IMG/VR virus record: IMGVR_UViG_3300028833_002847
DNA from: a virus
Length of the DNA: 55,153 nucleotides
Reading direction: 5' to 3' (one strand)
The position numbers were made by a program, and so were the translations under genes. The notes under the pieces were generated by a model, which saw only the letters and a list, made by a program, of their open reading frames with translations, searched no databases and had not been told where the DNA came from. Below are positions 1 through 53,567 of this stretch, one piece after another (within the stretch, counting starts at the first letter, position 1; the number at the start of each line of letters is the position of its first letter).

Positions 1-350
1 CTACTGGACAAGAAAGAGTGAGAATTCAGGCGCAATTTGATGCTTTCTGTAATGGAGGATCAATACTCCATTATAATATTGATGCACCTTTTACAAGTTA
101 CGAAAAAGCTTTATATATGACTAATTATATTGCTCAAAAAGGTGTTACATATTTTGCATTTAATACTCGAATTTCTACATGTAAAGATAATCATGCATTT
201 TATGGCAACGGGCCTTGTCCAGTATGTGGTAAACCAAAAGACGCAGAATTTACTAGAATTGTCGGTTTCTACACAAAAATTAACAGTTGGAGCCAGACTC
301 GCAAAGATGAATTTAAACTTCGTAAATGGGATAACATCAATGATAATTAA
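1..350 (+). CDS. nrdD: anaerobic ribonucleoside-triphosphate reductase NrdD, C-terminal fragment; the start lies upstream of the window
   Basis: Frame-0 ORF ending TAA 348-350. Tail CPVCGKP...TRIVGFYTKINSWSQTRKDEF matches the class III RNR C-terminal Zn-ribbon (CxxC) and the glycyl-radical loop (RVxGY-like). Trp is encoded by TGG only. Confidence 0.75.
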   Translation, partial: TGQERVRIQAQFDAFCNGGSILHYNIDAPFTSYEKALYMTNYIAQKGVTYFAFNTRISTCKDNHAFYGNGPCPVCGKPKDAEFTRIVGFYTKINSWSQTRKDEFKLRKWDNINDN

Positions 351-804
351 AGGTATTATTTCTGAAGATTTTATTAATTATAAAAAACCTTGTATGGTTA
401 TAGAATTTCCAGTTTGTAAAAACTTTAAATGCGGGCAAGCCCTATGTCAAAACAATCCATTAATAAAATATCCAGATATAGAAATTAGTTATTCTCAAAT
501 TGTTAAAAAATACATGGAAAATGATATTACACAAGCTATTGTTTTTATGGGGCTAGAACCTTTTGATAGTCCGCATGATTTATTTCTTTTAATTGAAGAA
601 TTTAGAAAATATACAATGGATGATATTGTAATTTACACTGGATATTACTGGAATGAAATTTCTACATATGTAGCTATGCTAGTGGATTATAAAAATATTA
701 TTATTAAATACGGTAGATACATTCCCAATCAAACTCCACACTATGATGAAGTTTTAGGCGTAAAATTGGTAAGTGATAATCAATATGCTGCAAAGATCAG
801 TTAG
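307..804 (+). CDS. nrdG: NrdG-like anaerobic RNR activating protein (small radical-SAM activase). Start is ATG 307 or ATG 340. It overlaps the nrdD end.
   Basis: Position immediately after nrdD. Cys cluster VCKNFKCGQALCQNNP. GLEPFDSP resembles the GGEP motif. Cys spacing is Cx4Cx4C, not canonical CxxxCxxC, so the call is tentative. Confidence 0.45.
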   Translation: MNLNFVNGITSMIIKGIISEDFINYKKPCMVIEFPVCKNFKCGQALCQNNPLIKYPDIEISYSQIVKKYMENDITQAIVFMGLEPFDSPHDLFLLIEEFRKYTMDDIVIYTGYYWNEISTYVAMLVDYKNIIIKYGRYIPNQTPHYDEVLGVKLVSDNQYAAKIS

Positions 805-812
805 GAATAAAT

Positions 813-1055
813 ATGTATTATAATAATTATTTTAACAACAACAATAATACTACTATTTTAATTATAATTATAGCTTGTACTCTTATAGTTGGTTTAAGTT
901 TTCTTTTATTTGCTTTTGGCTATTGGCTAATAACTTTAATAGCTGCTCAAATTTTTAATTTTATAATTCCATTTGAATGGACATATGCTTTAGGAGCTTA
1001 TGCAATATTAATAATTATTAGATTATTTATGTTACCAAGTGGTCAATCTAAATAA
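813..1055 (+). CDS. small hydrophobic membrane protein (2 predicted TM helices), unknown function
   Basis: 80-aa ORF. Asn-rich N-terminus followed by two long hydrophobic stretches. Sits just before a terminator. Confidence 0.5.
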   Translation: MYYNNYFNNNNNTTILIIIIACTLIVGLSFLLFAFGYWLITLIAAQIFNFIIPFEWTYALGAYAILIIIRLFMLPSGQSK

Positions 1056-1060
1056 AAAAT

Positions 1061-1108
1061 GCCTCAACAAAAGAATAAAAAATTCTAATGTTGAGGCTTA
1101 TTTTTTTT
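1061..1108 (+). terminator. intrinsic terminator after the first early operon
   Basis: Inverted repeat gcctcaaca ... tgttgaggc followed by a T8 run. The loop is large (about 19 nt). Confidence 0.5.
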
Positions 1109-1136
1109 GACATTTTATTTAATAATATAGTATAAT
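1107..1136 (+). promoter_or_regulatory. sigma-70/sigma-A type promoter (TTGACA-N18-TATAAT)
   Basis: Exact TTGACA at 1107-1112 and TATAAT at 1131-1136. Located about 25 nt upstream of the strong RBS AAAGGAG for the ORF starting at 1160. Confidence 0.6.
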
Positions 1137-1159
1137 ATAATAAAACGAAAGGAGATTAT

Positions 1160-1558
1160 ATGGGAGATGTTTCTTTAGGTACTGTATATGATATTAATAA
1201 AACTGTATATAGTAATCAATCAGAAAAAATGCCAGAAGCTTTAGTTCAATCCATGTTAAAAAAAGTTTCAAGCTGGTTTAAAACTAAAGCTCTTTGTGAA
1301 GCACAATATTATATGTTTCTTTGTCGTGACCGTAATGATTATACAATTTTTAATTTTATAAAAAATAATCCAGAAAAAGGAATCAAAGAATTAATTGAAT
1401 TAATTCAATCTCGTGGAATTCTTAAAGATATTGTCTATAATGAAAAATATAATTATTATGAATTTTGGATTAGTATAGATACAGAAGGATTTAGACCAGA
1501 AATGTATATGTATATTCTTTTTCCATGTAATGAATTTGTAATCGAGATTGGAGATTAA
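1160..1558 (+). CDS. hypothetical protein
   Basis: 132-aa ORF with a strong RBS (aaaggagattatATG). No in-frame TGA. No recognisable motifs. Confidence 0.6.
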   Translation: MGDVSLGTVYDINKTVYSNQSEKMPEALVQSMLKKVSSWFKTKALCEAQYYMFLCRDRNDYTIFNFIKNNPEKGIKELIELIQSRGILKDIVYNEKYNYYEFWISIDTEGFRPEMYMYILFPCNEFVIEIGD

Positions 1559-1560
1559 AT

Positions 1561-1821
1561 ATGGATATGATGATTGCTGCTCGTCCCGCAGCTAATATTA
1601 CAATTATGATTACGCAAGAAACTCCAGAATATGATGCTCAAATGGTAGCTTCTCAAACTGTTTTTGAAAAAGATTTGGAAAAAACAATTAGAAAATATTT
1701 AAATGATTATAAAATCGAAACAATGTCTATATACGGTCCTTTAGATTATATTGAACATTTAGCTGATACTCTTGGTAAAACTTTTAATCGTGAAATTACT
1801 ATAATTGGAGCTGGTGTATAA
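1561..1821 (+). CDS. hypothetical protein
   Basis: 86-aa ORF, tightly packed after the previous gene. GGAG-type RBS. Confidence 0.5.
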   Translation: MDMMIAARPAANITIMITQETPEYDAQMVASQTVFEKDLEKTIRKYLNDYKIETMSIYGPLDYIEHLADTLGKTFNREITIIGAGV

Positions 1822-2102
1822 TGATTAAATATCTTCTTAAAACAACTGAAGAATATCGTCTTGAAACTGTAGAAGATGTAAAAACTTTTCATAAAAAACT
1901 TCAACAAGATGCTATAAATCAAGGATATACGCTAAGCTCTTTTGGATATACACAAAAGTCAACAACTGCTCGTGGAGAAATTATTGATGAATGGTGTGTT
2001 GTAAAAGTTATAAAAATATTCCAAAAAGATAAAGAACCAGAAAATGCACTTAATAAAATTACTTATGAAACTTTTAATAGAGAGGAGTTTAATGGAGATT
2101 AA
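1821..2102 (+). CDS. hypothetical protein
   Basis: 93-aa ORF. ATG overlaps the previous stop (TAATG). Confidence 0.5.
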   Translation: MIKYLLKTTEEYRLETVEDVKTFHKKLQQDAINQGYTLSSFGYTQKSTTARGEIIDEWCVVKVIKIFQKDKEPENALNKITYETFNREEFNGD

Positions 2103-2514
2103 AATAAAATATGAACATGATGATGTCCCTCGATTAAATAAAATTGTTCAAGGAGATTGAATTGATTTAACTTTAGATGAAGATATTCAATTAGATAAAG
2201 GGCAATCAGGACTATTTTCTTTAGGAGTGTGTATTCAATTACCAAAAGGATATGAAGCAATTTTAGCTCCAAGAAGTTCAACATTTAAACGTTATCATTT
2301 ACTTCAAACCAACTCAATTGGTGTTATTGATAATTCTTATTGTGGAAATAATGATATCTGGAAAGTTAGTTTTTATGCCACCGAAACTACTTTTGTTCCA
2401 AGAGGAACAAGAATTTGTCAATTTAGAATAATTAAAAATCAACCTGAAATTAATTTTATAGAAGTTTCATCCCTTAATAATCAAGATAGAAATGGTTTTG
2501 GTTCAACAGGATAA
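2092..2514 (+). CDS. dut: dUTP diphosphatase (trimeric dUTPase), Bacillus YncF/YosS-like
   Basis: RBS GAGGAG. Motifs QGDWIDL (the W is TGA at 2158-2160), APRSS, GVIDNSYCGNND, RICQFRII and GFGSTG at the C-terminus. MEIKIKYE...QGDWIDL closely resembles B. subtilis prophage dUTPases. Confidence 0.85.
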
Positions 2515-2993
2515 TGATTTTATCTTTAGATCAAGCATTAGTCACAACAGGTTGAGCAATTTTTGATGAAAATAAATTAATAGCTTATGACAGTTTTACT
2601 ATAAATGGAAAAGATTCTATTGAAAAAAGATTAGGATTTATTTTTCAAAGATTAATAGAATTATATAATAAATATGAGTTTGATTATTTAGTATTTGAAG
2701 ATATTCAACAGCAACAAAATCCAAGTACATATAAAAAACTTGCATATGTTCAAGCGATTATTTTACTTTGATGTTTTTATAATCAAATTAATTTTACAGT
2801 ATTAAGTCCTTCTCAATGAAGAAAAATATTAGGTGGAAATTTTGGAAGAAAAAGAGAAGAACAAAAACAAAAAGCTATTAATTTAGTAAAACAATATTAT
2901 AATATAAATGTTGATTCAGATATTGCGGATGCAATATGTATTGGAAAAGCCTATTTAGATAGTCATAAACAATTAGGATTCGGGGTGATTTAA
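2514..2993 (+). CDS. phage RuvC-like Holliday junction resolvase
   Basis: Start overlaps the dut stop (TAATG). N-terminus ILSLDQALVTTGWAIFDE is RuvC-fold motif I. Acidic FEDIQ and C-terminal DSDIADAICIG catalytic motifs are present. Three in-frame TGA are read as Trp. Confidence 0.75.
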
Positions 2994-2994
2994 A

Positions 2995-3930
2995 TTGTCT
3001 CTTTTTATTGTGGCAATTATTATAGCATTAGTCCTATTATTCTTTGCAGGCTATTGTAGAAAAACTAAAGATAATAAATATGATAATTATTCAAAAGCTA
3101 CAGGACCTCTTATTATAGCAGCAATTATAGTAGCTTTAACAGGTACATTTTTATCTTGCGTTTATACTCAAGATGTAGGTGAAGTTGTTATTCTTCGTAA
3201 TCTTGGAGGTCAATTAGCTGGAACAACTGAAGAAGCAGGTTTTCATTTTAAAGCTCCTTGGCAAGATACTATTGATTATGATATTCGTAACAATATTATT
3301 AATCTTTATCGAGATGATGAATATTCCTATGATAATGGAACAGCTCATGGAGCAGAAGTAACAGTTTATGATAAATCAGGCGCTCAAGCAAATGTAGATG
3401 TTCAAGTAATTTATTCCTTAGACCCAGATGCAGCAATTGATCTTTATACTAAATACCAAGAACAAGAAAACTTTATTCAAATTTCCGCAGTAAATAATGT
3501 GCGGGATGCTGCAAGAAATGTATCAGGACAATTTACTACAATTGAAATGTTAAATGCTCGTGAAAACTATGCTAAAGCAATTTATGATAAACTTTCAGCA
3601 GATTGGGATAAAATAGGATTACATGTCGAAGAGGTCAACGTACAGGACATCAGATACAATCAGGAAATTGTTGATGCTTATAATGCTGCTCAAAAAACAG
3701 AAATTTCCAAAGTTGAAGCATTAAATCAACAAGAAACCGAAAAAGTTAAAATGGATACTGAAGTCATGAAAGCTCAAAAAGAAGCAGAAGCTAATAAAAT
3801 TAGAAGTGATTCTCTAACTCCTGAAATTCTTCAACAAGAATATATTGAAGCTCTTAAAAATGGTAACGCTATTTATGTAGTTCCTGAAGGTTCTACTCCA
3901 ATAGTCAATCTAGATAAGAAAGCAGAATAA
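2995..3930 (+). CDS. SPFH/band-7 (HflC/K, prohibitin-like) membrane protein
   Basis: TTG start with SD GGGGTGAT. N-terminal TM helix. Then VVILRNLGGQL...FHFKAPWQDTIDYDIR...VQVIYSL typical of the SPFH domain. Coiled-coil, Ala/Glu/Lys-rich C-terminus. No TGA. Confidence 0.7.
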   Translation: MSLFIVAIIIALVLLFFAGYCRKTKDNKYDNYSKATGPLIIAAIIVALTGTFLSCVYTQDVGEVVILRNLGGQLAGTTEEAGFHFKAPWQDTIDYDIRNNIINLYRDDEYSYDNGTAHGAEVTVYDKSGAQANVDVQVIYSLDPDAAIDLYTKYQEQENFIQISAVNNVRDAARNVSGQFTTIEMLNARENYAKAIYDKLSADWDKIGLHVEEVNVQDIRYNQEIVDAYNAAQKTEISKVEALNQQETEKVKMDTEVMKAQKEAEANKIRSDSLTPEILQQEYIEALKNGNAIYVVPEGSTPIVNLDKKAE

Positions 3931-3932
3931 AA

Positions 3933-4640
3933 TTGAAATTTTTAAATATTCTTTTTATTGCAATTCTAAGTTTAAGTATTTTAGGATGTAATAAACCACA
4001 AACCCAAGAGAAGAAAGATGAAGAAGTAATAACTGTGCGGGACGAGGAAGCACCTCGTGATGGAAGTCAAGCCGGTTCTAATGCAGTCGATATCCCGCAC
4101 TTCCTCGCCACTTTAGATAATGAAAGATTTACTTATTCTTATTCACCTATTGGATATGATAATATTGATATTGAAATGACTAAAGATTTAAATTGTATTC
4201 AACAAATTACAAATTGTTTTGGATATAAGTTTGATATACAAAAATTTTATGATGATTATTTTGATAGCATGAATCTTCATACTGATGTAACTCCAGTTCA
4301 AGGAAGTTTTGGACCTTCTGGATGTGTAGAATTTACAAAAACATATTATTCAGATAATGATATTCCAATAAGTGTAGAAGAAATTTCTGGTATTGATTTT
4401 GAAACTTTTACAAATATTGTTAATCATAATTGGCCTATTATGGTATGGTATACATTAGATGATAGTCAATTTGGTGGAGAAATACAATATTGGCCTTTCT
4501 ATTATCCAATGATTGCTACTAAAGTAGATGAAGAAAATGTTTATTTGTTTGATGCAATTAATGGTGAAAAAGTAGAATCTATTTCTGAATTTCAAAGAAT
4601 TTGGGAGAAATGCGGAAATTATTGTTTAGTTTTCTTTTAA
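3933..4640 (+). CDS. lipoprotein (signal peptide with lipobox LGC), unknown function
   Basis: N-terminus MKFLNILFIAILSLSILGCNKPQ has a SPase II lipobox. Last gene of the plus-strand operon. Trp is encoded by TGG only. Confidence 0.65.
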   Translation: MKFLNILFIAILSLSILGCNKPQTQEKKDEEVITVRDEEAPRDGSQAGSNAVDIPHFLATLDNERFTYSYSPIGYDNIDIEMTKDLNCIQQITNCFGYKFDIQKFYDDYFDSMNLHTDVTPVQGSFGPSGCVEFTKTYYSDNDIPISVEEISGIDFETFTNIVNHNWPIMVWYTLDDSQFGGEIQYWPFYYPMIATKVDEENVYLFDAINGEKVESISEFQRIWEKCGNYCLVFF

Positions 4641-4650
4641 AAATAGACAT

Positions 4651-4692
4651 AAAAAAAGAGGGGTACTCAATTAAGAGTACCCCTTATTTTTT
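4651..4692. terminator. bidirectional intrinsic terminator at the convergence of the plus-strand early operon and the minus-strand late module
   Basis: A7 run, then a 10-bp stem gaggggtactc/gagtacccct with loop aattaa, then a T8 run. U-runs on both strands. Confidence 0.75.
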
Positions 4693-6251
4693 TACCATTT
4701 ATTATCATTTAAAGAGCATTGTAAGGCTTTAACAGATTCTCTACCAAAATATCCATCTACATCAATATCGTAACCTTTATTAACTAACCATTGCTGGAGA
4801 GCTCTTGAGGTCCCAGGGCCTCATTGACCATCAACTTCCGCACCAACTTTACTTTGAATAGCTTCAACTAATTGAGAACCAGTTCCGCTATCATATTCAA
4901 CATTATACATTCCTCAATGGTAATCTTTATTTCCAAGCCATTGACCGCTAATAACACCATCTTCATAAGTACCTAATGTGTGCTGTAAATCAATAATAGT
5001 ATTTCATCCACCAATACCATCAATTTCAAGTTTTCCACCATCGCGATTATTTTTTGGATCAGTTGAAACATCTGGTGTGAAATTTCCACTATCAGAATTA
5101 CTATAATGAGGTCTAATAACATAGGCTACGTTACCCATATTACGATATTTTTCTTGTACGGCATTACCAACATTACCTTCAATTGTTGGGAATCCAGAGC
5201 CATCAAAACTTCCTGTTGCAAATCCAATATGGTCAGTAGCTCCATCTCAATCCCAATTAAAGATAACAATGTCTCCATACTGTACATTATATTTATCTAC
5301 AGCATAATTTTTTGCGCCATTATTTAGAGCTAAATCTGTATTATAAGTTGGGAAACCTTTAACTACAACTCCTGCTTGTTCTAAGCATCAACTTACAAAC
5401 ATGCAGCACCATCAAATTTCAACAGAAGGTCCAGCAAGCCAATCTTCATCTCACTTATCAGCCAATCAACGACCATATTTAGAACCTGGTTCAGGATCAT
5501 TAGGAGCATAATATCCTAATTCACCATAAGCAACGTCAATAACACTTTTAGCTGTTCCACTCATTTGTTTACTTTCTTCTTCTTTTTTTTCCTCTATTGG
5601 TTCATCAGTTTGAATAGTTTGTCCAGCAGCTATTCTTGCGGGATAGTCGATACAACACCAATCGCAATCGTGATAACCACTAACATCATCAAATACTATA
5701 TGACCATCAGATAATCTAATTCCGCCTTGCTGTCACATTCCAATATCTCCAGCTTCAGTTGGTCAAGAAGCTTTTCATCAAGCAATTCAATTAGCATAGT
5801 CACGAAGTTCATCTGCATACATATTGTTTAATCATGCATTTCCACCAGTATAAAGTCCTGCATAATATCCTCTATTACGGAGAGTATCGCAAAAAACTTT
5901 AATAACATCAGTTAAAGTACGTGCTGATAACTGGAATTGTCTTGGATCTTCAACATCTGTGTAACAAGGTAAATCAAATTTATGTCCATCAAGTAAATCT
6001 GCAAAGTGATTAGCATCTTTTCTTGAATTTTCTGTATCTGTAGTAACTGTATAATAATATGCTCCAATATGAAGTCCAGCAGCTACAGCTTTTTTATAAT
6101 TATTTTCAAATTGTCCGTCTTTATAACGTCCTAAATTTGTTTCATTTCCACCAGCTTTAATAATAACGCCTCAAAGTCCTCTCTGACGTTTTCAAGCTGC
6201 TAAATCAATATCCCCATCTCAATGAGAGATATCAAGAACAAGTTCTTTCAT
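4692..6251 (-). CDS. endolysin: N-terminal GH25 muramidase, central CHAP/NlpC-P60-like amidase/peptidase, C-terminal PG_binding_1 peptidoglycan-binding repeats (table 4, about 519 aa)
   Basis: SD AGAGGTG. N-terminus LDISHWDGDIDLAAWKR...VIIKAGG. GH25 motifs ANWIAWW and GMWQQGG with the conserved Trp encoded by TGA. Cys/His core ...WWCCMFVSWCLEQAGV...DHIGFATG. C-terminus QWGPGTSRALQQWLVNKGYDIDVDGYFGRESVKALQ. Confidence 0.8.
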
Positions 6252-6280
6252 TTTCCGCACCTCTTTTCTATATAAAAAAA

Positions 6281-6312
6281 GAGTCCCATATTTCAGGGAC
6301 TCTTTTTATTTT
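6281..6312 (-). terminator. intrinsic terminator between the holin and the endolysin
   Basis: Stem gagtccc/gggactc with an 8-nt loop. Followed on the minus-strand transcript by a U7 run immediately downstream of the holin stop. Confidence 0.55.
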
Positions 6313-6601
6313 ATTCTTTTAGATGAGCAGGCTGCTTTTTTAATTCATGCATTAGTATGTCTGCTTGAAGAGCGGGTTGAGTAAAACTGTTATTCTTCCA
6401 TCAAGCGATAATAGAAGCTACAACAACAGCAACACCTGAAGCAATTTCATAAATATTGTTTTCATCAATATCAATAGGAGTTCACCCAAGTAAAGCGCAA
6501 AAAGCATTAACTAATGCAATAAATAGAACAATGGTTCTAGCAATAGTCCCAGGTTCAATTGAAAGCAATCCGTCTAAATTAATTGTTTTTGCTTCAGCCA
6601 T
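6311..6601 (-). CDS. holin (LL-H / phi-LC3-like class, about 95 aa)
   Basis: SD AAGGTG. Charged N-terminus. Two hydrophobic helices (IARTIVLFIALVNAFCALLGW and ASGVAVVVASIIAWW). Polar C-terminal tail. Directly upstream of the endolysin. Confidence 0.65.
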
Positions 6602-6627: not shown

Positions 6628-7428
6628 TTATTCTCCAGTTCCGCTTCCACCAGCGACGAGTGCATCAATCTCTGCATTAGTAGCAAATGTAATATCTGCA
6701 TCTAAGACATATGGAGAAAGATCAACGAAGCCAGGAAGTACATCAAATTTATAAGCAGGAGACTGACCAGTTGTGTCAGTATCAACAACAACTACATTGG
6801 TTCCAGCAGGATAAGTCTTAGTTACTCCACTAGCATATTCAACGAAGTCACTAGTAATAGTAAAGGAGTCAGTAACATTATAAACGTTACCAAGAACACC
6901 AACAGCTAGAGTTGGTAGACTTGCAAATGCTACAGAACCAGCAGGCTTATAAACAGTAGCAATCTGAGCAGCTACAGTGTCATCAACATAAGTTTTAACA
7001 GCTGCGCCTGTTGGAAGTTTAGCATCATTAGCAAGTGTAGTCTCAACGTCTTTATAAGCAGCAGCGTCAAGACCATGAACGGCTACATCTGAACCATTAA
7101 CAGCAACAGTACCATTTGTAGCACCTTCGGCAACTGTAACATTAACTTTCTTGGTTGTGCTATCAGGAGTTAAATCTGTAGCATTAACTTGGACACCAAG
7201 AACTGGAATTGTTACGTCAACCTTTTTGTTAGCATCAGGAGTTAAGTCAGTACCATTATATTGAACACCAAGAATTGGAACTTCAACATCAACAGCACCA
7301 TCAGCATCCTGTGTTAGAGCTGTACCATTACACTTAACAGTTTTTACTGCACCAGCAGGAGCAAATGTTTCTGTAGCTTTCTGCCATAAACGTTGAATAC
7401 CAGCCCAATCAACGAGTTTCATCGCCAT
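6628..7428 (-). CDS. Ala/Val/Thr/Gly-rich repeat protein, probably a virion structural or decoration protein
   Basis: SD AAGGGTGA. Internal repeats VDVxVPILGVQxNxTDLTPDxxKKV. No TGA. Noticeably GC-richer than its surroundings. Confidence 0.45.
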   Translation of the reverse strand: MAMKLVDWAGIQRLWQKATETFAPAGAVKTVKCNGTALTQDADGAVDVEVPILGVQYNGTDLTPDANKKVDVTIPVLGVQVNATDLTPDSTTKKVNVTVAEGATNGTVAVNGSDVAVHGLDAAAYKDVETTLANDAKLPTGAAVKTYVDDTVAAQIATVYKPAGSVAFASLPTLAVGVLGNVYNVTDSFTITSDFVEYASGVTKTYPAGTNVVVVDTDTTGQSPAYKFDVLPGFVDLSPYVLDADITFATNAEIDALVAGGSGTGE

Positions 7429-8155: not shown

Positions 8156-11100
8156 TTAATTTTGTTCTGGAATATAGAAGTAACCTTTATCTGTATTATT
8201 ATTAACAGAGCCATCTTTACGATAAGCAATATAAATAGTATGCGGGATTCCTTCCAAATTCTCAAATTTTGCTTCTTTATAATTCATATTAGAATTACCA
8301 TAAGTATTATAATTATAATTACTAGTAGTAGGTTGAGCATCTATTTTCATAATTAAATAGTCATAATTGGATTCTCCATATGAACAATATTTAATGATAA
8401 ATGTATCATATCCATCAATATTAATCATACAAGTATCAGTAGTATTATGTTGATTTGTATGTTTACTACTATAATATACTGTATGACCATCTACTTGAGT
8501 TCCACTATTAGCTCATTCATCATTATTAAGGTCTATAATATATTCTTGTTGAATTAATATTACTCTTAATATCTTTGTAGCAGTTATACTATTATTATAA
8601 ATACTAGTAGCTGTAATAATTAAAGTATCTCCATCAGAAGCATTTACTAATTTAACTAAACCATTAGTATCAATAATAGCGTTACCTTCAATAGACCAAG
8701 TTACTCCACGATATTGCGGGTCAACATCAATACTATCATCTGGGTCTATATAGACAGGAGTTAATTGAGCAACTCTATCATAAACATCTTGTTTATAACA
8801 ATTGATAGTTTCAATATTGGAATCTAATCTTATAGATACTAATTCTTTATCAGAGCCATCTTTAAAAGCGCTTAAAACATTTTTTCATTGATAAGCTGCT
8901 TTATATGTTGGGAATAAGCTTAATGGAATATAAATAGAGGTTACACCAGTAGAAGAAAGATATGTATTAGTATCTGAATTAAAGTTTTTAAATACTCCAC
9001 GAGCATAAATTGTTCTAAGATTTGTCGCATATCTAAATATTTCTGATGTAGAATTAACTGCTGAAAAATCTCAACCAGAAATATCTATTGTATTTAATTT
9101 ATCACAATAATAAAATAATCCATATAAATCTGTGACTGTTGAGAATGTTCATTTAGACATATCGAGTTCAGTAATTGCTCTATCATATCAAAACATTTGT
9201 CTAATAGTAGTAAGATATGGAGTATGCATTTCTCCAAAATGAATACTTGTTAAACTAGGATTGTTTGCAAACATAGCTTGCATTGTAGTAACATTTGTTA
9301 CATCCAATAGATCAAAGTCAAAAGTTTTAATTCTTGTTTCATTAAAAGCATGACTTAAACTAGTAATTTGTGAGGTTTCACTATTAATAATATCAAAAGA
9401 GCCAATCTGATAACGACCACTTAAAGTAATATAAGTTCCACTAAAATTATTAAATGTAATATTTAATGTACCAGCGCTAATATCATTCATAGTAGAAATA
9501 ATGGTACTAATTCTACCGCAATCACTACAATTAATAAATTCTGTATTGGTAATTTTACTATCATAACGAAACATGTTAGATACATTTGCGGAAGATGGTA
9601 TATGTGGAATAATAACACTCGTTAAATTTGAACAATTTGCCATTGAATATTGTAAATTATTAATTTTATCAACAGATAATTTTGTAGCATCAAGAATTGT
9701 CATTTTACCTTCATAGAAAGCATAATTAAAATTACAGTCTGCTTGTTCTCGCATATTTCATTTTGAAGTATCTAAAATAGTTAAATAAGGACACATATGG
9801 AAACAATATGTATAATTAGTTACATTTGAAAAATCCATATTAATATCTTTAAGATTATGAATTCCAGTTCCCGCATAAGCATAATTTAATGAATTAGGTT
9901 TATTTCTTTCATGAATAATAATTTCTCCATTGTTATTTTCTACTCAATTAACCATATTAATATTTTTAATTCTAATAGCACTTCTAATAAATTCATTAAA
10001 ATTATTATTAATAGTACCTTCAACAATTAAAGTAATAAAACTATTACTATTATTAGCTCCATTACAAATTCATCTAATTAAACTATTTCCACCTGTTCAA
10101 CCATTACATTCAGAAAAATAAATATTTTGAAGAGCAGAACAACCTTTTAAACAATCAGTGGCATAGCCACTATCATAATCATAAAGTTGCTTAGCATTCC
10201 TAAATTCAATTGTGTCAAGAGTAATACAATTTTCAAACATATGAGTCATATGTAAATAATAAGCTCGATTAGCAACTACTAAATTTGGAAATTCTATATA
10301 ATCAATAGACGTACATTCTGCAAACATATAATCATAATAAATATCTGTTCCTTTATTAATATTCATATTATAATTTTCAGGGAAAATAATCTTTTCAAGT
10401 AAACCACATTGATAAAACATATATCTTGAATCTTGAATTTTAGTAAAATTAGAATAACCAATATCTACAGTTACTAAATTAACACATCCAGAAAACATAT
10501 ATTGAGTATTATTTACATTTCCAACATTTCAAGTAGTCATATTTATTTCTGTAACAAATACTTCCATATTATTAGCTATAGTTCCAGAATCTTCCATAAA
10601 TTTAATTTTAGTTATGGCTCTACAATTTTGAAACATGCAAGACATATTAGTTATAGGAGAAGTGTCAGCATCATTTGTGGTTGTTGTTAATCTAAATCAA
10701 TCAATATAATCTAATTCATAACAATTTTGGAATCAACCTTGCATACTAGTAATTCCAATAAATTTAGAATATTTTAAATTAATAGATTTTAAAGCTCAAC
10801 ATCCAGTAAATAAATATTGAGCACCAGAACTACTTAATTCAACAAAATTTACACTACTTAAAGTTAAATTTGTTAAAGAATGACAATTAATAAACATTCT
10901 GCTAATATTAGTAGCTCTACATGGATTAGTAAATAAATAATTAATATTTAAAGTTTCAAGAGCATAACAATTTCCAAACATATATTCTAGACTTCTACCA
11001 CCAACTCATGGGCTAGAATTATTATTTTGTCCAACTCTTGTAAATGAAACATTGTGTAAGTCTAAAGATTTTAAAGCTCTACAATGATTAAACATACTTT

Positions 11101-14100
11101 GACAATACATTACATTAGAAAATAATCAGCCATTATCTCCTTGATGTGTATTAATTTCTTCAAGAGCATAACAATTTTGTAACATACAGGTTGTACTATA
11201 AGCGCCAATCATATTGAAATGTTGATTTAAAGTTTTTAAAGCATAACAATGTTGAAACATGTATTGGAAATTGGTACATTTTTGAGAAATAAAACTATCA
11301 GGAAAAGTTAATTCTTCAAGAGCATGGCATCCTTCAAACATCCCGTCAACTCTTTGAAGATTTGCTCCTCCAAAGGTTTCTGGAATTCTAATTGATTGAA
11401 GAGCATAACATCATTGAAACATTCTTTCTGCACTAGTATTATTTATCATTGTAAAAGTATCTGGAAGATATAATTCTTCAAGAGACTCACAATAACAAAA
11501 CATATACGTAGCATTATCTCCACTTCATAAAGAAGTATTAAAATTAGGAATCAAGAGATGCTGTAATGATTTACAATTATAAAACATTTGATAAAAATCA
11601 GAACATTTAATAGTATTAAAACTTGTTAAATCTAACTCTTGTAAAGATTGACAATCATAAAACATTTCATACATTGTAGTAACATTTTCTGTTGAAAAAT
11701 TACTAAAATCTAAAGTTTCAAGTTTAGTACATGCATAAAACATTTCAGAAAAAGTAGTTACTAAATCTGTATTTAATGGAGTTAAATCAAAAGTTACTAA
11801 AGAAGAACAATAACAAAACATATTAGCACAATTAGTTAAACTGTGTCAATATTCCATACCACTAATATCTAAAGTAGTTAAATTAATACAATCATAAAAT
11901 AAATTAGATACATTTTTAATACTTTGTCCTTGAGCCCCTCATGTAGACATATCAATAGTAGTACCTCTATATCCTCTAAATAAATTAGCAATACTAGTAC
12001 AAGTATTAATATTTCACTCTTCTAGATGAAGATCAACACTACTACCACAATAAGTTCCGCCTATTGATTTTCCTGCTAAATAGAAAGTATTATCTCTATA
12101 AATAACTCTTTGTAATGCTGAGCATCCTCAAAATTGAGCCTGAATATTTTTAACATGTTCAGTCCAAAAACTAGAAAGATTAATAGTTCGAATAGTATTA
12201 GCATTTAAAAACATTACTGCTCAATTAATAGAAGTAGTTGTTTCTTGAATATTTCATTGAGACAAATCTACACTAGTTCCCTTATAGCCACTAAACATTG
12301 CTACAAAACTTGTTTGCTGTGAAACATCTCAATGACCAATATTTAAAGGAATTTTAATATTATAAAACATTTGCCCAACTGCTGTATAATATGTATATCT
12401 CATACTTCCATTAGTACCAGTATCAATTCATCTTGTAGAATAGTTTTCATTACTTCAATAATCAATTGAATTAGCCTTCATTATAAATGAATTTGTTTCA
12501 AAAGTTTTAAGTTTAGAACAATTATAAAACATAGCTTCAAAATTTACAACTTTAGAAGTATTAAATGTTTGAATTTTTAAAGTAATTAAATTAGTACATT
12601 CAGCAAACATTTCTGCCATACTTGTTCCTTGAGAAGTATCTCAATTAGAAAATATTAATTCCGTACCTTTATAACCATAAAACATTCTAATAAAATATTT
12701 CATTAAAGAGGTATTAAAAAGAGTCAAATCATGAATTTGTCCTATACTTCCATTGAACATGTCTCTAACATTTACACTAGAATGGAACTTTCATTCATTT
12801 GTTATATACAAATCCTGTAAATTAGAGGTTCCATAAAACATTTCTGACATATTGGTACAAAATTCAATATTAAAGTCTGAAAGAGTAATTGTAATTGCCT
12901 TACAGTTATAAAACATTTGTGACATATTAATACAAGATTCGGTATTAAAATCTAAAAGAGTAACTGTAGTTGCTTTACATTCTCTAAACATCTGCGACAT
13001 ATTGGTACAAACTTCTGTATTAAAATTTGAAAGTGCGATTGTAGTTAATACAACATTTGTATTATAAAACATTTGATACATTGTTGTTACATGAGAAACA
13101 TCTCAAGTAGAAATATTAATTTCTGGAAGAAAACATCCACCAAACATATAAGTCATATCTGTAACTGAAGAAGTATCCCAAGTATTAAATAAAATTCAAG
13201 GAGCATGTACATCTGCAAAAGTATTAATCATATTCTGTACAGAAGAAATATCTCAAGTAGATAAATCTAATCCATTAGTAAAAGTAGACAGCCTAAACAT
13301 AGCTCTGAAAGAAGTAATATTAGAAACATTTCAATTTGCAACGTTTATATTTGTAAAAGTTGAACGATACAACATTGCTCTTAAATTAGTAATATTACTA
13401 AAATCTAAATTTTCAGCTTCTAATGTTCCAATAGTAGAATCATAAAAGAAACTAAAATCACTATCTCAACTAAGAATATTTGTTAAACTAGTAATATCTC
13501 AATCTGTAATATTAATTAAATTTGCAGTACATCCTCTAAAAATAAATTGCATATTAGTACAATTACTCATATCTCAGGTTCTTAAATCTAATTCAAGACT
13601 AGATGTTCCCATTTCTCTAAACATACCACTAGCATTTAAAACTTCACTAGTATCAAGAATATCTAATCCTTCAATAGACTGCAAACCTTTTAATTTATAA
13701 AACATATTCATACTATTAGCATTTAAAATAATAGGTGCTGCAACTTCAAAAGTAATAGTAATTGTTCCAGTATCATTATCTCAATTAGCTACTACTGGAG
13801 AACCTTGAGAACCAATAGCAATACCAGATTTTTGAATACCATTTTCAAATATTATATGTTTAATTTTAGTATCTTCAAAATTACCATCTGTAACATTACT
13901 TCCATTTGCCATACGTTTAATAGTATAAGAAAATTCACCACCAGAAATTAATCTAGAATTATATTTTTCTGGAAGAAGCGGAAAATCATAATATGTTTCT
14001 ACTTTAATAGGAATATCTTCATTTCAAACAGTATACATATTTTGAACACCAGTATACATATCTTTAGGAAATTGCATTGGATATAAAACTATATTGTAAT

Positions 14101-17100
14101 CTAAGTAAGTAGAAGAGACATAGAAAAACGCTCTATCCTCATTTGAATCAACACTACCATCCTTACGATAAAGTAAAGTAATAGTATGCGGATTATCATC
14201 ATAAATTTCATATACAACTGTAGTATATGTCGTACTTGGTTTTCCATAAGTATGATATTCACAATTAGAAGTTGATAATCCAGAAGTTTGATCAAGTTTA
14301 CTAACAATTAAATAATCATAATTTGATTCTCCATTAGAACGAACTCTAATAGAAAATCTTGAATAACCTTGTATAGTTAAATAACAATAAGCATTTCCAT
14401 TAGCAATATGATAGTTAGAATTACTTTTATAAATTTGAGAACCATTTATAGCATTATCACCATCTTCAATCCATTGGTCATTTAAATCAATAGATCAAGA
14501 AGCATCAGATAGGTGTTTAATAGAATATCCTTCTATTTCTGCATTTCTAGCAGTATCATAAAATTGTCCTATATCCATTTGCTGCATAGCTAAACAATTA
14601 TATAAACCATTTTCTTTTTCAGTATAATTAAATAACGTTCTATGTTTGCGGAAATCGAGGTATGTCATACTTTCACAACCAGAAAAAATTTCTCGCATAT
14701 CCCGCAAATAATTAGAACATAATAATACTATATTAGTTTCAATAGTTTTACAATTCATCATCATTTGATAAGCTGAAACGACGGTATTAAAAATAATTTC
14801 AGGATAGCGCTCTTGTTTAATTTCTATTAAATTATAACAATTCTTAAACATTTTATCAGCATTTTTAATATACATAAAAGGAAATACTTTAGTAACTAAA
14901 TCATAAGTAGGAGCTGCACCTGTAGATTTTGTTCCTTTTGGTCAAATAATTTTTTCAAGTTCATAACAATTTTCAAACATTGATGACATATTACCAATAT
15001 TTTCAGATGTTAAACCAAGATTTCCATTATTATTATATGGTAATCCGGTAGCTTGAGCTAAATTATGATAAGTTTGGAACATCCAAGTACTTAAATCAAT
15101 TTCTTGTAATTTTCTACAATCTTTAAATATTCTAACAAATCAATATTTTTGACTATTACTAGTATTTTCAGAAGGAGAATATTCAGTTGTAGTACCTCTT
15201 CAATCACCAAATTTTAGATTAACTAAAACTAAATTTTCAAGATTATAACAACCATCAAAAGTTCCTTCAAATTCTTGAGTTGTATTATAATTAGTAATAT
15301 CTATAGGTCTATCATTTGGAAATTTAATACTTGTAATTTTATGACAGTTATAGAAAGTTTCTTTCAATGAAGTTAATTGAATATCATAACCGCCATATTG
15401 ATGCCAACTCCTATTACCTCCAGTAATTCAATTATAACCAGCATTTGGATTTGTTTTAGGAATAAATTTAGAAAAATCCATTTCCATTTCTAAATTTTTA
15501 CAATTATAGAAAGTTTGACTTAAATTTCATAAAACCATATTTTGAGAACCATTACTTGATTTATCAAATTGACCATTAGTAGTAATACTCTTTAAGTTAG
15601 TAATATCAATTAATGATTCACAATTATAAAACATTTGTTTAAATTGATTATTAGAATGTCTATCAACATAATAAGTTCAACCACCACTTGGGGTATAATA
15701 TCTCCTAAATGCTAAATTAATTTTTTCAGGTAGGATAATATGTTTAACATTTATACATTCTTTAAACATTCCTTCATAACAAGGACCATTAAAAACATTT
15801 GAATATTTTAAATTAATTTCTTCTAAAGATTTACAATTATAAAATAAATAAGAATAATCGTATAAATTTGTAAAAAAGAAATATTTTAAATCTAAACTTT
15901 GTAAAGATTCACAATTATAAAAACATCTACCTACTAATTCAGTTTTTCTTCAATAAGCACTAAAACCAAGAGATTGAGCATACTGTCCATGTAAATCTGT
16001 AATTGTAATTAAGGATTTACAATTATAAAAAATTCTATCAAAATTACAATATAAATAACAATTAGACATATCAAGTGCGGGAAGAGATTCACAATTTTCA
16101 AACATACTAGCAGCTTTTACAAGACGTCCATGAAATTCCATTTTAACAAAATCTAAATTAATTAAAGATTTACAATTACAGAACATATAAGAAACATCTG
16201 TGACACCTCTTGTTCTTCATCTATCAAAAATAATAGATACTAAAGATTCACAGTTTAAAAACATTTGGTTTGTAGAATATAATCACGGACTTTCAACATC
16301 TCCCATATCCAAAGATTGGAGATTAATACAGTCTTTAAACATTTTCTTAATATCTCTAGCCATATGCCAATTAAAATTAGATAAATCTAATTGAGTTGCC
16401 AAACAACCCTCAAATAAATTATTAAAATAAATATTTTCTTTATTAAATTGTGCGGTCAATTGCTCATAAATCACATCTGGCAACCAAGCAAAAATATAAT
16501 CTTTCTTCCTTGGGAATATAATTGAAGAAATATCAATTTCTCTTAAATTATTACATCCAGTAAACATATATGACATATCTTGAACATTAATTGTATTAAA
16601 ATTAGATAAATCTGCAAAAAGTAAGGAAGCACAATTATAAAACATATAAGACATATCTATAACATTATTTGTATCAAAATCTTTAAAATCAATTAAACTT
16701 AAAGATTCACAATTACTAAATAAATGTGTCATATCTGTTACTTTAGAAGTATCTATATTTTCAGGAAGTATAAGTTCTTTAAGATTTTTACATCCATTGA
16801 ACATATATTCCATATCTATAACGTTAGAAAAATTAAAATGAGATAAATCAATATAATCAAATAATTCACAATTATTAAACATATAACTTGTATCAGTTAA
16901 TGTTTGTAATTCTAAATTAGATAAATCTACAGTAATAAGCGAAAAACATCCGTCAAACAAATGAGAAATATTTGTAATATTTTCCCATTGAATCTTATTG
17001 AAATTGTTTATGCGTCGTAATTCCCGCATATCATAAAAAGTATATTCTGCATTATCTCTAATTACAAAATTTTCAGCTCTGGTTTGAATAATAATTTTTT

Positions 17101-26500: not shown

Positions 26501-27167
26501 CTGCAAAAGCATATTGTAAATTCTGAACATCATATCCACAATGATAATCAACATAATTAATATCTGGAAACTTAATTTCCATTATTTGTGAGCAACCATT
26601 AAAGATATAAGACATATCTATAATATTTGTAAAATCATTTACAGAAAAATCAATTCCCGCAAGTCCTTTACAATTTTGAAACATAAAACTAATATTGCTA
26701 GTTTTAGTTAAATTTAAATAGTTCATACTATTTATTAATCAAAGTTTATCAAGTCCCGCAAAGAAATAAGACATATCTGCTCCTGCAATAACAGGACCTT
26801 CAAAACTTACTAATTTAATAAAACTTCTATAATCATACCAAGGAGAGTTTGTTTTTCCAGTATCCCGCACAAAATCTTTTCCATTTTCACATTTCCCTCG
26901 ACTTATATCAGGCAGGACTCCCGCATATAAAAACAAAACTCCCTTAGTAGAAATTTCTCAAGAACAAGTTCCAAAAGTACCAGAATATAAAGGCGTTTTA
27001 TCATGAAGAAAAGAGGTGACGAAAGTATTAGTCTGAATTGAACGAATAGCGTCAGCCATTTCTCCAACTTTATAATTTTTAGAATAATCTCCTAATTTAT
27101 TTCTAATAGCATTACCCATATCTGTTAGATATTGTTTGCTAATAATCACCCTTTTCTCTTCACTCAT
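23514..27167 (-). CDS. BspA/DUF285-type LRR protein paralog A (about 1217 aa, table 4)
   Basis: ATG overlaps the tail fiber stop (TAATG at 27165-27169). Fragments 26958-27167, 26739-26936, 26304-26726, 25680-25970, 24636-25130, 24174-24521 and 23514-24098 all share one frame. Junction 26958 checked and is TGA. Real stop TAA 23514-23516. Has the N-module MSEEKRVIISKQYLTDMGNAIRNKLG and C-module ...ADTYTIQYN. Confidence 0.6.
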
Positions 27168-49800: not shown

Positions 49801-49874
49801 TCAATACCCTTTAAATCAGCAGAAGTTTTTAACTGATATTCAATTGTATTTGAATACTTACTCAATGTTCTCAC
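40839..49874 (-). CDS. tail tape-measure protein, about 3010 aa (table 4)
   Basis: Ten listed fragments from 40839 to 49874 share one frame. Junction 45851-45942 checked and is TGA only. The N-terminal region (48726-49121) resembles the TP901-family tape-measure core (SLDAMALVAAESASDL...). Long Gln/Glu/Ala-rich coiled coil. Hydrophobic Gly/Ala segment at 47160-47423. Start is GTG 49874 or TTG 49865 after SD AAGGTGA. Stop TAG 40839-40841. Confidence 0.6.
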
Positions 49875-53448: not shown

Positions 53449-53567
53449 CTTAAGTATCACCTATTCCTTTCTTTTAATCTCGGTAATTTTTTACAATGCC
53501 ATTGTTTAATCACCATTCACTAAAGGAATAGCGATTCTCTATAATCAAGATTCCAACAGAATCAAGA

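What the first reader, a model, noticed from the sequence alone, without database searches (positions are those of the whole stretch)
2995..4640. SPFH/band-7 membrane protein and a lipoprotein close the early operon; these are candidate superinfection-exclusion or membrane-remodelling genes
Phage-encoded SPFH proteins and small lipoproteins are recurrent exclusion or defence-related morons. Here they follow the dut-resolvase genes directly and are TGA-free, so they could be made early in a standard-code host.
Basis: inference. Interest (0 to 1): 0.5.

Follow-up and report, generated by a model that had tools for sequence, protein, structure and literature searches.

The report
Phage SPFH scaffold plus dead-peptidase lipoprotein
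The last two genes of this recoded phage's early operon encode a prohibitin-like membrane scaffold and a surface lipoprotein built on a cysteine-peptidase fold that has lost its catalytic residues; both are real and conserved, but what they do for the phage is untested.

Summary
Both ORFs exist at exactly the stated coordinates. 2995-3930 is a solid SPFH/Band_7 protein (Pfam 6.6e-28, PHROG 200), closest in the PDB to prohibitins. 3933-4640 has a canonical lipoprotein signal. It is also a remote homologue of C39-like cysteine peptidases (PF13529, PDB 3erv) in which the catalytic Cys and His are replaced.

They follow dUTPase and RuvC and are closed by a bidirectional terminator facing the endolysin and holin genes. 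Both lack in-frame TGA.

The two genes behave oppositely in relatives:
- **C39-like gene:** it keeps its position (RuvC, C39-like, then a convergent endolysin) in at least seven lineages. These include a standard-code relative that still has the catalytic residues. Its sequence is only 22-30% conserved.
- **SPFH gene:** its sequence is well conserved (56-77%), but it moves around. It usually sits in early, replication or nucleotide-metabolism modules, and directly after cro in Collinsella prophages.

Neither gene matches a known defence or exclusion family, and no phage SPFH protein has a tested function. TGA avoidance is a feature of the whole early block. It is not conserved in orthologues, and dut and RuvC just upstream do contain TGA.

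An envelope role that works by binding (exclusion or protection) is plausible but unproven. Modest interest.

The parts
1107..1136 (+). Sigma-70 consensus promoter-like site (TTGACA-18-TATAAT, 12/12), the likely start of the transcription unit that ends with the two genes
   Evidence: Promoter-like hits as a whole are not enriched over shuffles, so only the perfect match is noted. Function is inferred.
2092..2514 (+). dUTPase gene (1 in-frame TGA read as Trp)
   Evidence: Pfam dUTPase 3.6e-13 on the code-4 translation; TGA count
2514..2993 (+). RuvC-like Holliday-junction resolvase gene (3 in-frame TGA, 0 TGG)
   Evidence: Pfam RuvC 3.8e-11
2995..3930 (+). SPFH/Band_7 (prohibitin-like) membrane protein, 311 aa
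   Evidence: Pfam Band_7 6.6e-28; PHROG 200 1.5e-44; profile match to prohibitin-2 8.7e-14; more than 700 homologues; dN/dS 0.09-0.22
2998..3165 (+). N-terminal membrane anchor of the SPFH protein: hydrophobic segments at aa 2-21 and aa 37-57, separated by a K/R-rich loop
   Evidence: Hydropathy. 15 of 24 homologues have two segments and the rest have one. K+R count is 53 before and 24 after the SPFH-proximal segment across the 24 homologues, which suggests an extracytoplasmic SPFH domain (inference).
3175..3744 (+). Band_7/SPFH domain proper (aa 61-250), followed by a charged helical region and the conserved tail YVVPEGSTPIV
3933..4640 (+). Lipoprotein with a catalytically inactive C39-like (papain-fold) domain, 235 aa
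   Evidence: Exhaustive phmmer found 40 homologues. 26 of 38 match Pfam Peptidase_C39_2. The family profile hits PDB 3erv at 1.7e-23. The AF2 model has pLDDT 79. Foldseek's top hits are the PCAT1 C39 domain and 3erv. Catalytic Cys and His are replaced.
3933..3989 (+). Signal peptide with lipobox (…LSILG|C19)
   Evidence: PROSITE PS51257 pattern satisfied; hydropathy
4155..4637 (+). C39-like domain (about aa 75-235). The GCE motif is TKD here and the NEHC motif is FYYP.
4658..4685 (.). Bidirectional intrinsic terminator hairpin between the convergent early operon and the lysis genes
   Evidence: 11-bp stem with T-runs on both strands; sequence
4692..6260 (-). Endolysin (GH25 + CHAP + PG-binding), 17 in-frame TGA; convergent neighbour
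   Evidence: Pfam on the code-4 translation
6311..6601 (-). SPP1-type holin
   Evidence: Pfam Holin_SPP1 1.5e-24

Best explanation
The two genes are the terminal cistrons of a host-promoter-driven early or middle operon (small ORFs, dUTPase, RuvC, SPFH, lipoprotein) in a TGA-to-Trp recoded phage of a peptidoglycan-bearing Bacillota-type host.

Gene 1 encodes a prohibitin/HflKC-like SPFH protein. It is anchored by one or two N-terminal transmembrane segments. By analogy with solved SPFH proteins it probably assembles into a ring or cage on the membrane. By the positive-inside rule, its bulk is outside the cytoplasm.

Gene 2 encodes a lipoprotein tethered to the outer leaflet. Its domain descends from an active C39-like cysteine peptidase; a standard-code relative keeps the catalytic residues at the same locus. 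The window protein has lost the nucleophile and the general base, so it can only bind its ligand, not cleave it.

Most likely role (inferred): both remodel or mask the infected cell's envelope early in infection. The pseudo-peptidase would occupy a peptide or cell-wall ligand or a surface protein. That would block further phage entry or protect the infected cell from attack from outside. The SPFH scaffold would stabilise or compartmentalise the membrane.

Shown: domain identities, loss of catalytic residues, membrane tethering signals, operon structure, and the conservation patterns.

Inferred: topology, oligomerisation, timing, and the biological role.
For: - **Identity.** (SPFH). (C39-like fold; Cys replaced by Lys, His by Tyr).
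- **Active positional orthologue.** P0127 keeps GCE, HC and DP plus a lipobox. It sits between RuvC and the endolysin in the standard-code relative L017.
- **Membrane tethering is conserved** across the inactive clade, as a lipobox or a signal anchor with a positively charged N-terminus.
- **Lipoprotein gene evolution.** Purifying but relaxed selection (dN/dS 0.32-0.40) and 22-30% identity across lineages. Its neighbours are 40-66% identical. This is the pattern expected of a surface protein tracking a variable partner.
- **SPFH gene evolution.** Strongly constrained (dN/dS 0.09-0.22; 75-77% identity across lineages).
- **Early context.** A perfect sigma-70 promoter and a terminator bound the unit. 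In about 30 Collinsella prophages the SPFH gene is the gene after cro, next to cI.
- **Precedent.** Exclusion by surface lipoproteins in Gram-positive phages: Ltp of TP-J34 (PMC3952083).
Against: - Neither protein matches any PADLOC model.
- The lipoprotein matches no PHROG and no cultured-phage record.
- No phage SPFH protein has a tested role.
- SPFH genes recur in replication and nucleotide-metabolism modules, which could point to an intracellular role.
- Topology rests only on charge counts.
- The lipoprotein gene always abuts the lysis cassette, which could instead mean a lysis-related role.
- The two genes are not an obligate pair. L007, L009, L015 and L017 lack SPFH at this locus, and 69 SPFH loci in bacterial genomes have no C39-like ORF within 5 kb.
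Confidence: 0.4

Rival explanations
1. The C39-like lipoprotein is a lysis accessory or regulator. It would bind peptidoglycan stem peptides, the endolysin or the holin ectodomain from outside the membrane, to time or localise lysis. It could also act as immunity against the phage's own endolysin released from neighbouring lysed cells.
For: - In the window lineage and in L007/8, L009, L012, L014, L015 and L017/18 the gene is the immediate convergent neighbour of the endolysin, whatever the endolysin type (GH25+CHAP, GH25+ELLD, Amidase_2).
- The nearest viral folds are peptidase domains of cell-wall hydrolases, and PeiR appears in the PDB search.
- In L015 the gene is TGA-rich like the lysis genes (7 TGA/3 TGG).
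Against: - It is on the opposite strand, in a different transcription unit, separated by a terminator. Two modules simply meet at this point.
- In L016 the gene sits inside the module, far from any endolysin.
- Loss of catalysis argues against a lytic enzyme role.
Confidence: 0.22
2. The SPFH protein is a membrane scaffold for phage DNA replication or nucleotide metabolism, not an envelope or exclusion factor.
For: SPFH genes are embedded in replication and nucleotide-metabolism modules in distant phages:
- this window and L016: NrdG-dUTPase
- Arthrobacter phage Zucker: SSB, band-7, glutaredoxin, helicase
- Bacillus phage PK-3: topoisomerase, SPFH, NrdIEF
- crAss-like cr128_1: SPFH, HKD nuclease, helicase, primase

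The sequence is strongly conserved.
Against: - Charge distribution predicts the SPFH domain lies outside the cytoplasm.
- In Kayvirus the homologue lies in the lysis region (PMC7150955).
- Co-location may only reflect shared early timing.
- No such role is documented.
Confidence: 0.2
3. SPFH and the C39-like protein work as a pair, analogous to SPFH-protease pairs (HflK/C-FtsH, stomatin-NfeD/STOPP). The cage would enclose the (pseudo)peptidase.
For: - The genes are adjacent with a 2-nt spacer in the window lineage.
- Both genes co-occur in the same module, in a different order, in L016.
- Both are predicted to be extracytoplasmic.
Against: - L007, L009, L015 and L017 have the C39-like gene without SPFH at the locus.
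- L003-L006 have SPFH without it.
- No C39-like ORF lies within 5 kb of SPFH in 69 bacterial or prophage loci.
- The two genes evolve at very different rates.
Confidence: 0.1
4. The lipoprotein gene is a decaying remnant of a formerly active peptidase and has no present function.
For: Loss of catalytic Cys and His. It is the fastest-evolving syntenic gene.
Against: - The ORF is intact in every lineage examined.
- dN/dS is 0.32-0.40, below 1.
- Core residues and the membrane anchor are conserved across at least 14 inactive members.
Confidence: 0.04

Closest known systems
Phage SPFH / 'band-7-like membrane proteins' (PHROG 200; for example Kayvirus MbpS, Arthrobacter phage Zucker gp68, crAss-like cr128_1 gp_25381)
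   Same: Same Pfam domain and PHROG. N-terminal membrane anchor, about 280-315 aa. Found in large lytic phages and in prophages (372 phage records). Function untested in all of them.
   Different: At most 38% identical to any cultured-phage homologue. Here the gene is inserted between RuvC and the C39-like gene of a recoded phage. Kayvirus MbpS lies between lysK and tgl in the lysis region (PMC7150955).
Prohibitin and HflK/C-type SPFH cage proteins
   Same: Best PDB sequence matches are prohibitin-2 at 8.7e-14, then stomatin and QmcA. The architecture is the same: TM anchor, SPFH domain, helical region, conserved C-terminal strand. Predicted N-in/C-out topology like HflK/C (inference).
   Different: No paired paralogue, no FtsH or NfeD partner gene nearby, and many members have an extra N-terminal TM. 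Cage formation was not tested.
C39-like peptidases (Pfam PF13529; PDB 3erv of B. anthracis; C39 domains of PCAT1, ComA and LahT)
   Same: Homologous by profile (1.7e-23 to 3erv) and by fold. Many bacterial members are also membrane-tethered or lipoproteins.
   Different: Catalytic Cys is Lys and His is Tyr. The window protein alone is below the Pfam threshold (14.5 against 24 bits). Phage-encoded, at a fixed locus.
Inactive C39-like domain (CLD) of HlyB-type ABC transporters
   Same: A C39 fold that has lost catalysis and acts by binding its substrate. This is the mechanistic precedent for a binding-only role.
   Different: The CLD is a cytoplasmic domain of a transporter. Here it is a stand-alone extracytoplasmic lipoprotein. 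No sequence relationship beyond the fold was tested.
Ltp-type superinfection-exclusion lipoproteins of Gram-positive phages (TP-J34; PMC3952083)
   Same: Phage-encoded, lipobox-anchored, surface-exposed protein in a Gram-positive-type host.
   Different: No sequence or domain similarity. Ltp sits in the lysogeny module of temperate phages. This gene ends a nucleotide-metabolism operon in a phage with no lysogeny genes in the window.

Membership tests
SPFH / Band_7 (PF01145) | Profile match above the curated threshold | tested here: met
   98.4 bits against a cutoff of 23.6, aa 61-250; PHROG 200 1.5e-44
SPFH / Band_7 (PF01145) | N-terminal membrane anchor directly preceding the SPFH domain | tested here: met
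   Hydrophobic segments at aa 2-21 and 37-57; conserved in 24 homologues
SPFH / Band_7 (PF01145) | Helical/coiled-coil region and C-terminal segment that drive ring or cage oligomerisation | tested here: inconclusive
   The profile aligns to the SPFH2 and helical region of prohibitin-2 (query 142-272), and the C-terminal YVVPEGS motif is conserved. No structure or multimer prediction was run.
SPFH-NfeD or SPFH-protease operon | Adjacent NfeD/STOPP or FtsH-type partner gene | tested here: not met
   The downstream gene is C39-like, not NfeD. No such Pfam family appears in the neighbours.
Bacterial lipoprotein (PROSITE PS51257) | Positive n-region, hydrophobic core, lipobox [LIVMFWSTAG](2)-[LIVMFYSTAGCQ]-[AGS]-C at positions 15-35 | tested here: met
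   IAILSLSILGC with C19 and K2
Bacterial lipoprotein (PROSITE PS51257) | Lgt/Lsp processing and lipidation | not testable with these tools
   Needs globomycin sensitivity, palmitate labelling or mass spectrometry.
Peptidase C39-like (PF13529) | Profile match above the curated threshold | tested here: not met
   The window protein scores 14.5 bits against a cutoff of 24. Homology is nevertheless supported through intermediates: 26 of 38 homologues match; an HMM built from the active members only hits the window protein at 1.2e-24; the family profile hits 3erv at 1.7e-23.
Peptidase C39-like (PF13529) | Papain-like C39 fold | tested here: met
   AF2 pLDDT 79, pTM 0.69. Foldseek probability 1.0 to the PCAT1 peptidase domain, 3erv and ComA PEP, with TM-scores of only 0.4-0.7.
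Peptidase C39-like (PF13529) | Catalytic Cys (GCE motif) and His (NEHC motif) | tested here: not met
   TKD replaces GCE and FYYP replaces NEHC. No alternative Cys/His pair is conserved in the inactive clade.
Ltp-type exclusion lipoprotein | Sequence or domain similarity to Ltp | tested here: not met
   A Pfam scan at E up to 1 returns only Peptidase_C39_2. No PHROG hit and no tblastn hit in 50,697 phage records.
Known anti-phage defence systems (PADLOC-DB 2.0) | Match to any defence-protein model | tested here: not met
   No family at E up to 0.1 for either protein
Moron (independently acquired accessory gene) | Sporadic presence at the locus, own promoter or terminator, atypical composition | tested here: inconclusive
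   SPFH: absent at this locus in L007, L009, L015 and L017, mosaic dS, and GC 0.31 against 0.26 upstream, but no promoter of its own stands out. C39-like gene: positionally conserved, so not sporadic.

The most novel reading that the evidence does not exclude
A clade of large Bacillota phages, both recoded and standard-code, keeps a membrane-tethered C39-like peptidase next to its lysis cassette. This peptidase has lost catalysis in many lineages and become a fast-evolving surface 'pseudo-peptidase'. The inactive form would act as a decoy or mask. It would either block the receptor or entry step of superinfecting phages, or shield infected cells from endolysin released by neighbouring lysed cells. 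That would be a new class of phage envelope-protection protein derived from an enzyme.
Probability: 0.2. Interest if true: 0.6.

Novelty: new variant of a known kind. Interest (0 to 1): 0.38.

Why it matters
Phage SPFH proteins are annotated in hundreds of genomes and have no known function. This locus adds a well-conserved member in a TGA-recoded phage, together with comparative context. The more useful result is the second gene, an unannotated phage family with no PHROG and no hit in cultured phages. It turns out to be a positionally conserved C39-like lipoprotein for which both catalytically intact and inactive versions exist at the same locus. That gives a natural active/inactive pair (L017 P0127 against the window protein) for testing what an early, surface-tethered peptidase fold does during infection of Gram-positive-type hosts. 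It also shows that 'TGA-free' is not by itself evidence of a special early role for a single gene in recoded phages, because of block-wide bias and gene-calling ascertainment.

Tried and rejected
- **Single-sequence AF2 of the lipoprotein.** Unusable, pLDDT 35. Repeated with a 38-sequence alignment.
- **The word-indexed protein search** found only one homologue cluster for the lipoprotein. The profile version recovered only three. The exhaustive phmmer search was what opened the family.
- **tblastn of the lipoprotein against 50,697 phage records:** no match. PHROG, NCBIfam and PADLOC: no match.
- **IMG/VR scans.** P0122, P0123 and P0130 found nothing. The window protein found only a near-identical contig, L010.
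- **Conserved TGA avoidance in the C39-like gene.** It looked striking at first, 0 of 15 Trp codons in three lineages. I dropped it after L013, L014 and L015 showed TGA. Code-11 gene calling in the databases also favours detection of TGA-free orthologues.
- **SPFH as a lipoprotein** (the PHROG 200 label). Cys55 is mostly conserved, but the preceding residues rarely form a lipobox.
- **A conserved SPFH/C39-like gene pair in bacteria.** No C39-like ORF within 5 kb of SPFH in 69 genome loci.
- **'Bacterial' SPFH homologues as cellular genes.** The Collinsella loci are prophages with int, cI, cro and then SPFH.
- **crAss-like origin,** suggested by the giant ORFs and the recoding. The lysis genes (GH25+CHAP, SPP1 holin) and the relatives point to a Bacillota-type host. 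No DNA-level relative exists among cultured phages.
Full report
**What the window is**

Translating with TGA as Trp raises long-ORF coverage from about 28 kb to about 54 kb of the 55 kb window. The window is therefore a TGA-recoded phage with about 29% GC.

The + strand block 1-4640 carries these genes:
- the NrdD C-terminus and NrdG
- four small ORFs
- dUTPase (2092-2514)
- RuvC (2514-2993)
- the two genes of the finding

A 12/12 sigma-70 consensus sits at 1107-1136. A bidirectional terminator hairpin at 4658-4685 separates the block from the convergent - strand genes. Those genes are:
- an endolysin with GH25, CHAP and PG-binding domains (4692-6260, 17 in-frame TGA)
- an SPP1-type holin (6311-6601)
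- structural genes, including a major-head-like protein

The lysis genes imply a host with peptidoglycan of the Bacillota type. No tRNA lies in the window.

**Checking the observation**

The coordinates are exact.

ORF 2995-3930 (311 aa) starts at a TTG behind a GGGGTGA ribosome-binding site, one base after the RuvC stop codon. It matches Pfam Band_7 at 6.6e-28 and PHROG 200 at 1.5e-44.

ORF 3933-4640 (235 aa) starts two bases after the SPFH stop codon. It opens with MKFLNILFIAILSLSILG|C, which satisfies the PROSITE lipobox rule.

Neither ORF has an in-frame TGA; they hold 2 and 4 TGG. Against close relatives L010 and L002, both genes are under purifying selection. dN/dS is 0.09-0.22 for SPFH and 0.32-0.40 for the lipoprotein.

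**The SPFH protein**

It has two N-terminal hydrophobic segments (aa 2-21 and 37-57) around a K/R-rich loop. Nine of the 24 aligned sequences have only the second segment.

Cys55 at the end of that segment is common, but the preceding residues rarely form a lipobox. The PHROG label 'lipoprotein' therefore does not hold.

Across the 24 sequences, K+R residues number 53 before and 24 after the SPFH-proximal segment. By the positive-inside rule this puts the SPFH domain outside the cytoplasm, as in HflK/C and the prohibitins. This is an inference.

The best matches among solved structures are prohibitin-2 (8.7e-14 with the family profile), then stomatin and QmcA.

The family is large. There are more than 700 hits below 1e-10 and 372 cultured-phage records, including Staphylococcus Kayvirus, Bacillus, haloviruses, Caulobacter, actinophages, Prevotella and crAss-like phages.

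Its sequence is unusually well kept. It is 77% identical in L016 and 75% in L003, while dUTPase is about 50-56% and RuvC 40-51% identical in the diverged relatives (including L016 for dUTPase).

Its position is not kept:
- Relatives L007/8, L009, L015 and L017 have the same module without SPFH.
- L016 has it after dUTPase.
- L003-L006 have it among SpoU methylase, kinase, PhoH and RNA-ligase genes.
- Arthrobacter phage Zucker has it between SSB and glutaredoxin/helicase.
- Bacillus phage PK-3 has it between topoisomerase and NrdIEF.
- crAss-like cr128_1 has it before an HKD nuclease and a helicase.
- About 30 Collinsella genomes carry a prophage ordered int, cI, then divergently a cro-like gene followed by SPFH.
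- In Kayvirus the homologue MbpS lies between lysK and tgl. The authors only speculate that it may aid secretion of Tgl (PMC7150955).

Between the window and L010, dS is 0.34 for SPFH and 0.011 for dUTPase. The gene is therefore exchanged by recombination.

I found no tested function for any phage SPFH protein. The only data point is mild toxicity of LeBron gp49 on overexpression (PMC13148394). There is no PADLOC match.

**The lipoprotein**

The standard searches were blank. Pfam gave only a sub-threshold Peptidase_C39_2 hit (E 0.053).

An exhaustive phmmer run found 40 homologues. Of the 38 I aligned:
- 26 match Peptidase_C39_2.
- Their profile hits the B. anthracis 'putative C39-like peptidase' 3erv at 1.7e-23.

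With that alignment, AF2 gives pLDDT 79 and pTM 0.69. Foldseek returns the PCAT1 C39 domain, 3erv, PeiR and ComA PEP. Among viral models it returns peptidase domains of cell-wall hydrolases.

In the alignment the catalytic motifs GCE and NEHC are TKD and FYYP in the window protein. An HMM built from the active members alone aligns residues 90-234 at 1.2e-24. It places Tyr/Pro opposite the catalytic His and fails to align the Cys region.

Sixteen short, low-GC members are inactive in the same way. Nearly all keep a positively charged N-terminus followed by a hydrophobic anchor, and three have a lipobox.

The protein is therefore a membrane-tethered, outward-facing pseudo-peptidase.

**Synteny of the lipoprotein gene**

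Homologues only 22-30% identical occupy the same slot:

| Lineage | Arrangement |
|---|---|
| window/L002/L010, L007/8, L009, L012, L014, L015, L017/18 | RuvC, C39-like, then convergent endolysin |
| L011 | RuvC, C39-like, then the contig ends |
| L016 (exception) | C39-like, one small gene, dUTPase, SPFH |

In L007, L009, L011, L014 and L015, which lack SPFH, the RuvC and C39-like genes overlap by 26-32 nt.

L017/L018 come from a relative that uses the standard code: it has no in-frame TGA and 38% GC. Its protein at this locus, P0127, keeps GCE, HC and DP plus a lipobox. The neighbouring endolysin there is an Amidase_2. This points to an active surface peptidase as the ancestral state, with catalysis lost in many recoded lineages; no phylogeny was built to test this.

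**The TGA argument**

The early block as a whole is depleted in TGA: 4 TGA/15 TGG against 183/51 on the - strand, p = 7.6e-7. Against the block's own background, 0 of 6 is unremarkable (p of about 0.11).

dut and RuvC, in the same operon, need TGA decoded as Trp.

Orthologues of the C39-like gene are TGA-free in six lineages but not in L013 (4/0), L014 (2/2) or L015 (7/3). Databases dominated by code-11 gene calls also favour detection of TGA-free versions.

TGA-free translation early in infection is possible for these two cistrons. It is not a conserved or gene-specific property.

**Interpretation**

The domain identities, the loss of catalysis, the tethering signals, the operon boundaries and the two opposite conservation regimes are shown. 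Topology, oligomerisation, timing and function are inferred.

I favour an envelope-directed role that works by binding. The SPFH protein would act as a membrane scaffold. The pseudo-peptidase would mask or act as a decoy for a peptide, cell-wall or surface-protein ligand, giving exclusion or protection (confidence about 0.4).

The rivals are:
- a lysis-linked role for the lipoprotein (0.22)
- a replication or nucleotide-metabolism scaffold role for SPFH (0.2)
- an SPFH/(pseudo)protease pair (0.1), weakened by their frequent separation and
- gene decay (0.04), contradicted by dN/dS below 1

**Verdict**

An envelope or exclusion role is possible, but 'known exclusion/defence morons' is not backed by any database or paper I could find, and both genes are conserved module components rather than sporadic morons.

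On novelty, the SPFH gene is a new member of a known, functionally uncharacterised phage family. The lipoprotein is a new phage-borne, inactive, positionally fixed variant of C39-like peptidases.

Noticed in passing
window 1-55153: The whole window uses TGA as Trp. The + strand early block has 4 TGA/15 TGG and the - strand lysis/structural block has 183/51 (Fisher p = 7.6e-7). The endolysin alone has 17 in-frame TGA. No suppressor tRNA gene lies in the window.
   Followed up: partly
window 27167-29206, 52273-53460, 6628-7428 (- strand): Three late genes have no TGA despite the TGA-rich surroundings: a 679-aa protein with no Trp codon at all, a major-head-like protein (phrog_2729/phrog_10), and a 266-aa protein. 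They may be highly expressed structural genes that avoid the recoded codon.
   Followed up: no
window 8156-19930, 35261-40714, 40839-49874 (- strand): Giant ORFs of 3924, 1817 and 3011 aa under code 4. The counterpart of the first one in relative L002 carries DUF285 and LRR_5 repeats.
   Followed up: no
window 813-1055 (+): An 80-aa protein with three hydrophobic segments has dN/dS of about 1.15 against L002 (65% aa identity, while its neighbours are 88-99%). It is a candidate fast-evolving membrane protein in the same early block.
   Followed up: no
L017/L018 (ENA ERZ27256821 k141_1296238, 121 kb; ERZ28653963 scaffold_2437): Standard-code relatives (no in-frame TGA, GC 38%) of the recoded lineage. 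They have the same gene order and a holin 59% identical to the window holin. They make a useful pair for studying how recoding arose.
   Followed up: partly
L002 391-3351; L009 2008-5052: In L002 the NrdD gene is interrupted by a GIY-YIG endonuclease gene. In L009 NrdD gives a faint Intein_splicing Pfam hit, so it may carry an intein.
   Followed up: no
window 2995-3930 against L010 5048-5998: Synonymous divergence of the SPFH gene is 0.34, while dUTPase just upstream has 0.011. This is a recombination mosaic centred on SPFH.
   Followed up: partly
L020-L057 and others (Collinsella genomes; for example NZ_AP031421.1 1004687-1015445): About 30 Collinsella genomes share a prophage ordered integrase, (T5orf172), cI-like repressor, then divergently a cro-like HTH gene followed by an SPFH gene about 50% identical to the window protein. 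SPFH homologues also occur on Bifidobacterium, Lachnospiraceae and Saccharibacteria contigs.
   Followed up: partly
L007 3804-3829; L015 8001-8026; L014 575-600; L011 1783-1808; L009 8001-8032: In lineages without SPFH, the RuvC and C39-like genes overlap by a conserved 26 nt (32 nt in L009). This suggests translational coupling, which the SPFH insertion interrupts in the window lineage.
   Followed up: no
window 1107-1136 (+): A perfect TTGACA-18-TATAAT promoter consensus lies upstream of gene 1160-1558.
   Followed up: no
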